Virus record (IMG/VR): IMGVR_UViG_2740892270_000007
Reading direction: 5' to 3' (one strand)
DNA from: a virus
Taxonomy: Duplodnaviria > Heunggongvirae > Uroviricota > Caudoviricetes
Length of the DNA: 7,312 nt
The position numbers and the translations under genes are program-made. Numbering within the stretch: position 1 is the stretch's first letter; each line of letters starts with the position of its first letter. Of the stretch, positions 508-1,017 are shown one piece after another. Under the pieces are notes generated by a model. The model had not been told where the DNA came from, made no database searches, and worked only from the letters and a program-made list of their open reading frames with translations.

Positions 508-1017
508 TTAGCTAAAAAAAGGCAACACGAAGCTAAAACTACCAACATAAAGTGCTGACCAGCTAGCAGCTGAAATCAGACTCACTGTATACACTTTCAC
601 TGGATGAAGTTGCAACATTCCTGCCACCAAAGGAGCAATATAACGCAGCACGGCGATAAAGCGCGAAGTGAAAAGTATTGACACAGAGTTATTTTGCAAC
701 TGAAGGCGAACCCGTTCTATTGTATTGGAACGGCTTGATATTATACATGCAAGTTGAGGGATATGCCCAATTATTATACCAAGATGGTAATTAACGATAG
801 TACCGCACCATGCGCCACTCATGACCGTGATTCCAGCTTCCCATGGTGAAAGAGTCGTCTTGCTGACTGTAATTACAGTGGCCATCATAATTGATGCTGG
901 TGGCAATATCGCCGAAATGAGTAAAGTGGATTTTGTGAACGCTATTATAAAAAGAAGCCCCCATAGGCGATATGGATGAAGTACAAAATAGTTCATCAAA
1001 GCATTTATCCACTCCAT
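508..1017 (-). CDS. polytopic inner-membrane protein, DedA/SNARE-associated-like; probable prophage moron
   Basis: 169 codons from ATG (complement of 1015-1017) to TAA (complement of 508-510); the track's start at 1020 is a TTG one codon upstream. GGAAAG lies ~6 nt upstream of the ATG on the minus strand. Several hydrophobic segments; C-terminal SRFIAVLRYIAPLVAGML...SLISAASWSALYVGSF resembles the DedA-family core GRFIxFVRTxxPxxAG as I recall it from E. coli YqjA/YqaA. Visibly more AT-rich than the flanking phage genes (by eye, not computed). Confidence 0.55.
   Translation of the reverse strand: MEWINALMNYFVLHPYRLWGLLFIIAFTKSTLLISAILPPASIMMATVITVSKTTLSPWEAGITVMSGAWCGTIVNYHLGIIIGHIPQLACIISSRSNTIERVRLQLQNNSVSILFTSRFIAVLRYIAPLVAGMLQLHPVKVYTVSLISAASWSALYVGSFSFVLPFFS

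What the first reader, a model, noticed from the sequence alone, without database searches (positions are those of the whole stretch)
508..1017. Antisense DedA-like membrane protein carried as cargo between the lysis and packaging modules
A 169-aa polytopic membrane protein is encoded on the opposite strand in the slot where lambdoid phages carry lysogenic-conversion morons such as bor. It is more AT-rich than its neighbours and has its own RBS. Its C-terminal half carries an RFIAxxRYIAPxxAG-type motif reminiscent of the DedA (TVP38/TMEM64, SNARE-associated) family, whose members are linked to membrane homeostasis, lipid-carrier flipping and polymyxin tolerance. A prophage-borne short DedA paralogue is not a standard late-region gene and could alter host envelope physiology, superinfection or lysis. 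I could not decide by eye whether the conserved membrane-embedded acidic residues of canonical DedA proteins are present.
Basis: partly seen in the sequence, partly recalled or inferred. Interest (0 to 1): 0.6.

Follow-up and report, generated by a model that had tools for sequence, protein, structure and literature searches.

The report
Prophage-carried short DedA membrane protein gene
A Shigella prophage carries, backwards between its lysis and DNA-packaging genes, an intact gene for a small DedA-family inner-membrane protein picked up from a Citrobacter-like chromosome; it is a real but fairly ordinary cargo gene, already labelled DedA in databases, and its one unusual trait is a lysine where this family normally has an essential glutamate.

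Summary
Window 508-1017 (-) encodes a 169-aa protein (170 aa from TTG 1020). It matches Pfam PF09335 (VTT/DedA) at 52.4 bits against a cut-off of 33.9, over the whole domain. It lies antisense between Rz/Rz1 and the small terminase subunit. It sits in a 744-bp AT-richer insert (464-1207, GC 0.43 versus 0.51) that related phages lack. RefSeq already calls it 'DedA family protein', and the exact protein occurs on at least 1000 mostly Shigella contigs.

New points:
YqjA E39 and D51 are replaced by K29 and A41, while R130 and R136 are kept as R119 and R125.
- K29 is invariant in a distinct short clade (164-180 aa) with no conserved acidic residue and no final helix.
- That clade is chromosomal in Enterobacter, Kosakonia, Citrobacter, Serratia, Hafnia, Morganella and Arsenophonus.
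- Only two prophages carry it, the Shigella one and an unrelated Citrobacter youngae lambdoid, and both hold it in the same slot and orientation.
- dN/dS is 0.15-0.24, so it is not decaying.

The function is inferred, not shown: a lysogen-expressed membrane-homeostasis or lipid-carrier factor. Interest is modest.

The parts
1..419 (+). Rz (i-spanin / 'lysis protein'); its 5' end runs off the window start
   Evidence: Frame 3 is open from base 3 to the stop at 419. RefSeq annotates 'lysis protein' at the matching place. It is 91-93% identical to Rz of DLP12-like E. coli prophages up to window position about 463.
169..375 (+). Rz1 (o-spanin) embedded in Rz in another frame
   Evidence: 68-aa [22 protein letters not shown]... 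with a lipobox and a proline-rich body. Read directly from the sequence.
464..1207 (.). Inserted cassette (moron) relative to related phages, AT-richer than the flanks
   Evidence: Homology to E. coli prophages ends at 448-463. Homology to Klebsiella and Salmonella phages starts at 1208-1215. Klebsiella phage ST16-OXA48phi5.2 has only 208 bp and one small forward ORF between Rz and terS. GC is 0.427 against 0.51 in the flanks.
498..1092 (-). Core mobile block: the CDS plus about 75 nt upstream and 10 nt downstream, shared with the Citrobacter copies
   Evidence: 82% nucleotide identity to the C. youngae prophage copy over window 1092->498, and 77-79% to chromosomal Citrobacter and Kosakonia copies. 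The C. youngae copy aligns to chromosomal Citrobacter copies with nearly the same borders.
508..1017 (-). Short DedA/VTT-family inner-membrane protein, 169 aa (alternative TTG start at 1020 gives 170 aa). Signature codons: K29 933-931, A41 897-895, R119 663-661, R125 645-643
   Evidence: Pfam PF09335 52.4 bits, E 9e-14. Residue mapping against E. coli YqjA, YghB, DedA and YabI. AlphaFold2 model with mean pLDDT 73 and pTM 0.69 shows the helix / re-entrant loop / helix repeat. dN/dS 0.15-0.24.
1024..1031 (-). Shine-Dalgarno-like AAGGAAAG upstream of the start codon
   Evidence: Sequence read on the minus strand. Homologues have GGAG at the aligned place.
1215..1979 (+). Small terminase subunit, first gene of the packaging module
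   Evidence: 83% identical to Salmonella phage SEN34, whose record annotates a terminase small subunit under the match and starts at this gene. RefSeq calls it a hypothetical protein.
1930..3333 (+). Large terminase subunit (PBSX type), intact in this window
   Evidence: RefSeq annotation transferred by coordinates. The ATG at 1930 is confirmed. It matches Klebsiella phage terminase large subunits. An IS2 interrupts it in strain FDAARGOS_943.

Best explanation
The feature is a moron, a self-contained cargo gene in a lambdoid-type Shigella prophage. It encodes a small polytopic inner-membrane protein of the DedA (VTT) family.

The gene belongs to a distinct short clade that is an ordinary chromosomal gene in many Enterobacterales. 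A phage picked it up from a Citrobacter-like chromosome together with about 70 nt of its own upstream DNA. It now sits backwards between the lysis cassette and the terminase genes.

Because it points against late transcription, it is most likely made in the lysogen and not during lytic growth (inferred). The protein keeps the whole DedA core: two re-entrant loops with their helices, the two arginines that bind the phosphate head group of the lipid carrier in UptA, and the serine next to the first loop.

It has a lysine where YqjA-type proteins have the essential glutamate and an alanine where they have the essential aspartate. It also lacks the last helix.

My best reading is inferred, not shown. 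It works as a DedA-type handler of an anionic membrane lipid, such as undecaprenyl phosphate or a phospholipid, or more loosely as a membrane-homeostasis factor. Its all-basic site (K29, R119, R125) would not use the proton-titratable acidic pair. It would give the Shigella host an extra, non-native DedA paralogue, which amounts to lysogenic conversion of envelope physiology.
For: Identity:
- Pfam VTT_dom scores above its cut-off over the full domain. There are weak but consistent NCBIfam DedA and UptA hits and a match to PHROG 33251.
- The clade profile scores 69 bits against E. coli YabI, 63 against YqjA, 57 against DedA and 56 against YghB.
- The AlphaFold2 model (pLDDT 73) gives helices 15-30, 32-35 / loop / 41-52, 58-85, 87-109, 111-117 / loop / 124-134 and 139-168. 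That is the amphipathic helix / re-entrant loop / TM helix repeat described for DedA proteins (PMC7818093).

Cargo status:
- The insert borders, the GC dip and its absence from backbone relatives all point to an insertion.
- A copy 78% identical at protein level lies in the same slot and orientation in a C. youngae prophage. That phage has a different terminase, portal and capsid module (GpA, Phage_portal_2, ClpP-capsid).
- The two phage copies are sisters nested inside the chromosomal Citrobacter/Kosakonia clade.
- The C. youngae prophage abuts the same ars operon next to which C. freundii carries the native dinI-dedA pair. Only one copy was found in the C. youngae reference genome.

Functional state:
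- dN/dS is 0.15-0.24. All 19 invariant clade positions are kept, and the seven deviations at conserved columns are conservative.
- The gene is intact and identical on at least 1000 contigs, although the prophage around it is broken by IS elements.

Residues:
- K29, A41, R119 and R125 map to YqjA E39, D51, R130 and R136. K29, R119 and R125 are invariant in 86 clade members, and no column is mostly acidic.

Literature:
- E39, D51, R130 and R136 are essential in YqjA/YghB, and D51A, R136A and S52C are non-functional (PMC10846249).
- UptA R112 and R118 bind C55-P, and E32 hydrogen-bonds R118 (PMC11474028).
Against: No expression data exist here. The consensus scan found no sigma-70 promoter upstream of the gene and no terminator after it. 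The best hand-found candidate, TTGTAA-18-TAAATT at 1100-1071, matches only 8 of 12 positions and is not conserved in the Citrobacter copies.

The loss of the glutamate that is essential in YqjA/YghB, and that bonds the arginine in UptA, could mean a quite different activity from lipid flipping. No substrate can be assigned from sequence. NCBIfam equivalog models for DedA and UptA are far below their cut-offs (31 against 236 bits; 20 against 250 bits).

Identity across Shigella contigs may reflect clonality and not selection. The model is of medium confidence, and the tip of the first re-entrant loop (residues 33-40) has pLDDT below 50.
Confidence: 0.6

Rival explanations
1. It is an accessory to divalent-cation (Mg2+) homeostasis and not a lipid flippase. 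The short K29 clade would work with, or regulate, Mg2+ channels, and the prophage copy would help Shigella cope with Mg2+ limitation or membrane polarisation inside host cells.
For: Chromosomal clade members sit next to Mg2+ channels in contexts that otherwise differ:
- MgtE lies immediately upstream and divergent in 25 of 30 Enterobacter/Lelliottia loci.
- MgtE lies immediately downstream in Arsenophonus nasoniae.
- MgtE lies 2.6 kb away in Hafnia.
- CorA is immediately adjacent in Morganella.

In the literature, the Klebsiella yqjA yghB mutant is rescued by Ca2+ or Mg2+ (PMC10846249). Xanthomonas XdfA is a DedA protein needed for magnesium maintenance (PMC10470534).
Against: The clade nearest the phage copy (Citrobacter, Kosakonia) has no such neighbour, and neither do Serratia or four Arsenophonus MAGs. 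The phage cassette carries no channel gene. A conserved all-basic site is an odd fit for binding a cation. Adjacency counted across related genomes is partly one inherited event.
Confidence: 0.12
2. It is a prophage-encoded superinfection-exclusion or defence protein: an inner-membrane protein that blocks DNA entry or aborts infection by other phages.
For: It is a small polytopic inner-membrane protein in a classical moron slot, oriented for expression in the lysogen. Many prophage membrane morons act this way (general knowledge; the moron concept is described in PMC3594210).
Against: There is no PADLOC match. Orthologues are single, syntenic chromosomal genes in ordinary metabolic and transport neighbourhoods, not in defence islands, and their tree tracks host taxonomy. 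An endosymbiont with a tiny genome (Riesia) keeps one, which argues for a housekeeping membrane role.
Confidence: 0.1
3. It is a lysis-timing modulator: a membrane protein that changes proton-motive force or membrane state to tune holin triggering of its own phage.
For: It lies directly after the holin-endolysin-spanin cassette in both phages that carry it. DedA mutants alter membrane potential (PMC10846249).
Against: It is antisense to the late operon, so late transcription would collide with it and not express it. Backbone relatives lyse without it. The gene is kept in prophages that can no longer lyse or package, with the terminase split by IS2 and an internal stop in the head gene.
Confidence: 0.05
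4. It is a neutral passenger with no function in Shigella: a host gene swept into a phage by illegitimate recombination and not yet decayed.
For: The Shigella copy sits on the longest branch of its clade and has drifted to GC3 0.38. dN/dS is somewhat higher between the two phage copies (0.24) than among chromosomal copies (0.11-0.15). No promoter was recognised. Shigella lineages are clonal, so identity across contigs is weak evidence.
Against: dN/dS is still well below 1 over dS of 0.5-0.9 since the split from its relatives. All invariant clade residues are retained and the deviations are only conservative. The reading frame is intact where neighbouring phage genes are broken.
Confidence: 0.13

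Closest known systems
E. coli DedA-family paralogues YabI, YqjA, YghB and DedA (Pfam PF09335)
   Same: Same domain and predicted core fold, with two re-entrant loops each followed by a TM helix. The prolines at the first loop and the FxxxR / RxxxP..AG arginine motif are conserved (R119 and R125 equal YqjA R130 and R136), as is the serine equal to YqjA S52.
   Different: It is 169 aa against 219-254 aa. It lacks the C-terminal flanking helix and an N-terminal insert. YqjA E39 is replaced by an invariant lysine and D51 by alanine (YabI also lacks the aspartate). Identity to these paralogues is 17-23%. It is carried by a prophage and is not at a core locus.
UptA (B. subtilis YngC) and other DedA-type undecaprenyl-phosphate flippases such as P. 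aeruginosa PA4029
   Same: DedA fold. The two loop arginines that bind C55-P in UptA (R112, R118) are conserved (PMC11474028).
   Different: UptA E32, which hydrogen-bonds R118, corresponds to K29 here. The NCBIfam UptA equivalog models score only 16-20 bits against cut-offs of 250-300. No functional test exists.
Lambda bor and other morons downstream of the lysis cassette
   Same: Same position (right after Rz/Rz1 and before the packaging genes), opposite strand to late transcription, atypical base composition, and absence from close relatives of the phage. That bor occupies this position in lambda is from general knowledge.
   Different: Bor is a small outer-membrane lipoprotein that confers serum resistance, whereas this is a polytopic inner-membrane transporter-like protein. 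No promoter or terminator could be recognised here.
Xanthomonas XdfA and Klebsiella YqjA/YghB (DedA proteins tied to divalent-cation homeostasis and virulence)
   Same: DedA family. A possible Mg2+ link is suggested by MgtE or CorA neighbours of chromosomal clade members (PMC10470534, PMC10846249).
   Different: It belongs to a different clade. The link here rests on gene neighbourhood only, and it is absent from the phage copy's nearest relatives.

Membership tests
DedA / VTT domain family (Pfam PF09335) | Significant match to the family profile above the curated threshold, over the whole domain | tested here: met
   52.4 bits against a gathering score of 33.9, E 9.2e-14, residues 41-161 on profile positions 3-121 of 123. 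All 21 and 157 homologues found carry PF09335.
DedA / VTT domain family (Pfam PF09335) | Core of a pseudo-inverted repeat: amphipathic helix, re-entrant loop, TM helix, twice (PMC7818093) | tested here: met
   The AlphaFold2 model (pLDDT 73, pTM 0.69) has broken helices 32-35/41-52 and 111-117/124-134, each followed by a long helix, with helices 87-109 between the repeats. Confidence is low at the tip of loop 1. No solved DedA structure exists for comparison.
DedA / VTT domain family (Pfam PF09335) | Pair of conserved arginines in the second re-entrant loop (YqjA R130, R136) | tested here: met
   R119 and R125 align to them and are invariant in 86 clade members.
YqjA/YghB-type (proton-dependent) DedA proteins | Membrane-embedded acidic pair E39 and D51, essential for function | tested here: not met
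   K29 and A41 occupy these columns in three independent alignments. K29 is invariant in the clade and no conserved acidic residue exists anywhere in it. The glutamate is present in nearly all other near hits, while the aspartate is present in only 13 of about 150.
YqjA/YghB-type (proton-dependent) DedA proteins | Equivalog-level similarity (NCBIfam PRK10847) and length of about 220 aa with a C-terminal extra helix | tested here: not met
   31 bits against a cut-off of 236. The protein ends where YqjA still has about 45 residues.
UptA-type undecaprenyl-phosphate flippase | Equivalog-level match, or a functional test such as amphomycin/MX2401 sensitivity or C55-P binding | tested here: not met
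   NCBIfam UptA models score 19.9 and 16.3 bits against cut-offs of 250 and 300. Function cannot be tested with these tools.
Phage moron | An extra gene between functional modules that is absent from otherwise related phages | tested here: met
   Homology to relatives breaks at about 463 and resumes at 1208-1215. Klebsiella phage ST16-OXA48phi5.2 has Rz, then a 45-aa ORF, then terS with no antisense gene. No close homologue is found in 50,697 phage records.
Phage moron | Base composition unlike the surrounding phage genome | tested here: met
   GC is 0.427 for 464-1207 against 0.51 on both sides, and GC3 of the gene is 0.38.
Phage moron | Independent transcription unit with its own promoter and terminator (PMC3594210) | tested here: inconclusive
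   The opposite orientation requires its own promoter, and about 70 nt of native upstream DNA came along with the gene. However, the scan found no promoter upstream and no terminator downstream above its thresholds, and there was no Rfam element.
Phage moron | Expressed from the repressed prophage | not testable with these tools
   This needs RNA-seq or a reporter in a lysogen.
Known anti-phage defence systems (PADLOC) | Match to a defence-protein model | tested here: not met
   Zero families matched at E up to 10.

The most novel reading that the evidence does not exclude
The short 'K29' clade is a functionally distinct class of DedA proteins. Its substrate site is charge-inverted: invariant Lys plus two Arg, with no acidic partner. 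It would work without proton coupling, for example as a passive scramblase for an anionic lipid carrier, or as a partner or regulator of Mg2+ channels or of the host's own DedA dimers. Temperate phages would have mobilised it into Shigella/EIEC, where it contributes to envelope fitness or intracellular survival alongside the ipaH effector carried by the same prophage.
Probability: 0.15. Interest if true: 0.6.

Novelty: new member of a known kind. Interest (0 to 1): 0.33.

Why it matters
DedA proteins are now recognised as lipid-carrier and phospholipid transporters tied to polymyxin resistance, envelope integrity and virulence. A phage-mobilised copy fixed in Shigella flexneri would be a lysogenic-conversion factor of a kind not described in the searched literature. 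It would add a foreign DedA paralogue to a pathogen.

The clade it belongs to offers a natural experiment on the role of the supposedly essential glutamate, since it has an invariant lysine at that position and still evolves under purifying selection. The practical weight is modest. The gene is already annotated as DedA, nothing here shows expression or a phenotype, and cargo genes in this slot are commonplace.

Tried and rejected
- **Promoter and terminator scan of 350-1300:** only sites inside the gene or unrelated to it, at chance level. Hand inspection of the aligned upstream regions gave no conserved -35/-10 pair.
- **Rfam at permissive threshold on 1-1400:** only a chance snoRNA hit, and no riboswitch such as an M-box.
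- **PDB by sequence and by fold:** no DedA structure and no significant hit.
- **BFVD viral fold library:** only weak giant-virus VTT proteins (E 0.24). The afdb50 library was not available.
- **PADLOC:** nothing.
- **Megablast against phages with the cassette:** nothing.
- **tblastn against phages:** only hits of 31% identity or less, in records that look like bacterial contigs or unannotated fragments.
- **Genome scan with the wide alignment A2:** Repeated with the narrower A3.
- **A 74%-identical 'plasmid' copy in C. freundii:** this turned out to be a chromosomal fragment carrying icd, purB and phoPQ, filed as a plasmid. It is not evidence of plasmid carriage.
- **Idea that the Citrobacter dinI-dedA pair is itself a prophage relic:** the left flank is syntenic chromosome (ABC transporter, TonB receptor) and no phage structural genes are nearby. 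I did not adopt this idea, although the region next to icd is variable.
- **Idea that the Shigella copy is degenerating:** rejected on dN/dS and on retention of conserved residues.
- **Literature:** no paper in the library combines DedA with a Shigella prophage or moron.

Full report
**1. What is in the sequence**

The minus strand of window 508-1020 holds an ORF of 170 codons from TTG. Homologues all begin MEW..., which favours the ATG. RefSeq uses the TTG, and both forms exist in public collections.

An AAGGA lies 9 nt upstream of the ATG. The protein is very hydrophobic, has three acidic residues in all and carries a net charge of +6.

The gene's GC is 0.418 (GC3 0.38). The stretch 464-1207 is 0.427, against 0.51 on either side.

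Upstream on the plus strand are Rz (runs off the window start, stop at 419) and an embedded Rz1 lipoprotein ORF (169-375). Downstream are the small (1215-1979) and large (1930-3333) terminase subunits, then the portal, head-morphogenesis and capsid genes.

**2. Family**

- Pfam PF09335 (VTT/DedA) matches at 52.4 bits (cut-off 33.9, E 9e-14) across the whole domain.
- NCBIfam's E. coli-DedA and UptA equivalog models hit only weakly (31 and 20 bits against cut-offs of 236 and 250).
- A PHROG of unknown function matches at E 3e-7. PADLOC finds nothing.
- An AlphaFold2 model built on 86 homologues (pLDDT 73, pTM 0.69) shows two broken helices (32-35/41-52 and 111-117/124-134). Each is followed by a long helix, with helices 87-109 between the two repeats. 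This is the amphipathic helix / re-entrant loop / TM helix repeat proposed for DedA proteins (PMC7818093).
- No DedA structure has been solved, so PDB searches by sequence and by fold gave nothing. The viral fold library gave only weak giant-virus VTT proteins.

**3. The acidic residues**

I fetched E. coli K-12 yqjA, yghB, dedA, yqaA, yabI, yohD, ydjX and ydjZ. I aligned them by MAFFT and by a profile of the clade.

| YqjA residue | Residue in this protein |
|---|---|
| E39 | K29 |
| D51 | A41 |
| S52 | S42 |
| R130 | R119 |
| R136 | R125 |

E39, D51, R130 and R136 are reported as essential in YqjA/YghB, and D51A, R136A and S52C fail to complement. In UptA the matching arginines bind C55-P, and the glutamate hydrogen-bonds one of them (PMC11474028).

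I tallied 173 hits from an exhaustive search of 1.84 billion representatives. Lysine at this column occurs only in short proteins of about 164-180 aa with the signature K-S-T...L-P-P-A-S. Nearly all other hits have glutamate. The aspartate column is D in only 13, so the aspartate is not family-wide.

In 86 clade members K29, R119 and R125 are invariant, and no column is mostly acidic. The clade also lacks the last helix of YqjA. Its closest E. coli paralogue by profile score is YabI (69 bits), followed by YqjA (63).

The protein is therefore a true DedA-family member, but it is not a YqjA/YghB-type one.

**4. Where the gene lives**

The exact DNA is in only 6 of 5426 complete 'E. coli' genomes. 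In each it lies in an IS-rich chromosomal prophage, placed beside modC/ybhA in the one case where the chromosomal flank was examined. An ipaH effector gene sits at the tail-fibre end in one relative. These six look like Shigella/EIEC-type strains. The exact protein is seen on at least 1000 contigs, named mostly S. flexneri.

All 100%-identical copies in IMG/VR and in the GTDB genomes have the same Rz-dedA-terS arrangement.

Homology of the window to E. coli DLP12-like prophages stops at 448-463. That break lies inside a small ORF that normally follows Rz. Homology to Klebsiella and Salmonella phages with the same packaging module starts at 1208-1215. One of them, ST16-OXA48phi5.2, has the same Rz and terS with only 208 bp between them. 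No sequenced phage has a close homologue.

Contexts of the nearest relatives:

| Organism | Protein identity | Context |
|---|---|---|
| Citrobacter youngae | 78% | Prophage with a different head module (lambda-type GpA terminase, Phage_portal_2, ClpP-capsid); gene again antisense between lysis cassette and terminase |
| C. meridianamericanus, C. freundii | 74% | Chromosomal dinI-dedA pair |
| Kosakonia | 72% | Between an EF-G paralogue and an L,D-transpeptidase |
| C. amalonaticus | 57% | Chromosomal, between a chemoreceptor and a porin |
| Enterobacter/Lelliottia | about 50% | One conserved syntenic locus in about 30 species |
| Serratia, Hafnia, Morganella, Arsenophonus, Riesia | lower | Chromosomal |

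**5. How the phage got it**

An NJ tree tracks host taxonomy. It places the two phage copies as sisters inside the Citrobacter/Kosakonia clade, with the Shigella copy on a long branch.

Nucleotide homology between the Shigella cassette and the Citrobacter copies runs from 75 nt upstream of the ATG to 10 nt past the stop (window 1092-498). The C. youngae copy shows nearly the same borders against chromosomal Citrobacter copies.

The C. youngae prophage abuts the very ars operon next to which C. freundii has its native dinI-dedA-icd arrangement. Only one copy was found in the C. youngae reference genome. This fits capture at that chromosomal site. I could not see the far end of that prophage.

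**6. Is it functional?**

dN/dS of the Shigella copy against its relatives is 0.15-0.24 over dS of 0.5-0.9. Among chromosomal copies it is 0.11-0.15. All invariant clade residues are kept, and the seven departures at conserved columns are conservative, several of them shared with the Citrobacter clade. The reading frame is intact in strains where the terminase, head and integrase genes around it are broken. This argues for constraint, with the caveat that Shigella lineages are clonal.

**7. How it probably works**

*Shown:* it is a DedA-core inner-membrane protein, it is phage cargo, and it points against late transcription.

*Inferred:* it is expressed from its own weak or unrecognised promoter in the lysogen. 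It acts as a DedA-type membrane-homeostasis or anionic-lipid (C55-P or phospholipid) handler. Its site is made of K29, R119 and R125 and does not use the acidic pair thought to couple YqjA to protons.

The scans found no promoter or terminator and no RNA element, so the 'independent transcription unit' criterion for a moron is undecided.

*A lead noticed on the way:* chromosomal clade members lie beside Mg2+ channels in Enterobacter/Lelliottia (MgtE, 25 of 30 loci), A. nasoniae (MgtE), Hafnia (MgtE nearby) and Morganella (CorA). They do not in Citrobacter, Kosakonia or Serratia. DedA proteins have been tied to divalent-cation homeostasis (PMC10846249, PMC10470534).

The superinfection-exclusion, lysis-timing and neutral-passenger readings are less likely, for the reasons given under the rival explanations.

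**8. Comparison and novelty**

The feature works like lambda's bor-type morons in position and logic, and like DedA proteins in fold. It passes membership of PF09335. It fails the YqjA/YghB-type and UptA-type tests.

The gene is already annotated as 'DedA family protein' (WP_011069285.1). The literature library holds no paper linking DedA to a Shigella prophage.

I rate it a new member of known kinds: a moron whose cargo is a DedA paralogue. The clade-level Glu-to-Lys inversion is its most interesting aspect. Interest is 0.33.

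Noticed in passing
window 169-375 (+), inside Rz (window start to 419): Embedded Rz1 o-spanin ORF of 68 aa, with a lipobox ([19 protein letters not shown]) and a proline-rich body, in a different frame of Rz.
   Followed up: partly
window 4338-4630: A run of 293 N (masked sequence) inside the portal (DUF1073) gene, so that gene cannot be judged intact in this window.
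   Followed up: partly
window 409-558 (+): A 49-codon ORF overlapping the 3' end of the DedA gene. It is the truncated start of a roughly 50-aa ORF that follows Rz in E. coli DLP12-like prophages. Homology stops at about 463, which marks the left edge of the insert.
   Followed up: partly
window 1093-1207: A 115-bp stretch between the DedA homology block and terS that matches neither the Citrobacter copies nor the related Klebsiella and Salmonella phages. It holds a GC-rich imperfect hairpin (CTGTGGGGGGCCCTGCCACGG, about 1102-1122) and a weak promoter-like TTGTAA-18-TAAATT on the minus strand (1100-1071). Origin and role are unknown.
   Followed up: no
L001 (NZ_CP065615.1) and L002 (NZ_CM177009.1), the same prophage in related genomes: The carrier prophage is heavily decayed: IS600 in the integrase region, IS2 splitting the large terminase, an internal stop in the head-morphogenesis gene, and IS911 directly after the DedA gene in strain VL7S7. 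It also carries a tRNA cluster before the holin, QueH and hokD, and in VL7S7 an ipaH T3SS effector at the tail-fibre end.
   Followed up: partly
L048 6610-7707 (-) next to 8001-8504 (+); L007 11034-12050; L079 1365-2378; L080 5520-6470: Chromosomal members of the short DedA clade sit next to Mg2+ channels: MgtE in 25 of 30 Enterobacter/Lelliottia loci and in A. nasoniae, MgtE nearby in Hafnia, and CorA in Morganella. This is not so in Citrobacter, Kosakonia or Serratia.
   Followed up: partly
L003 15974-19469 compared with L085 5251-9524: The C. youngae prophage that carries the DedA gene abuts the same ars operon beside which C. freundii has the native dinI-dedA-icd arrangement. The native dinI is replaced by a divergent phage-type DinI, and the DedA gene is inverted relative to ars. 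This suggests capture at that locus.
   Followed up: partly
L085/L086 (NZ_CP056259.1, filed as an 82-kb C. freundii plasmid): The record carries core chromosomal genes (icd, rluE, mnmA, purB, phoPQ, fdhF, nac, cbl). It looks like a chromosomal fragment mislabelled as a plasmid.
   Followed up: partly
L032 4179-7101 and 15420-15659: A Mu-like left end (repressor, Ner-like, 671-aa transposase) is inserted just upstream of a Citrobacter-type dinI-dedA pair. A second dinI copy lies 7.6 kb downstream.
   Followed up: no
L003 8812-9171 (+) and L016 3908-4318 (-): Other prophages carry different antisense genes in the same post-lysis slot: a 119-aa ORF in the C. youngae prophage and a DUF1398 gene in an E. 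coli DLP12-like prophage. The slot is therefore a general landing place for cargo.
   Followed up: no
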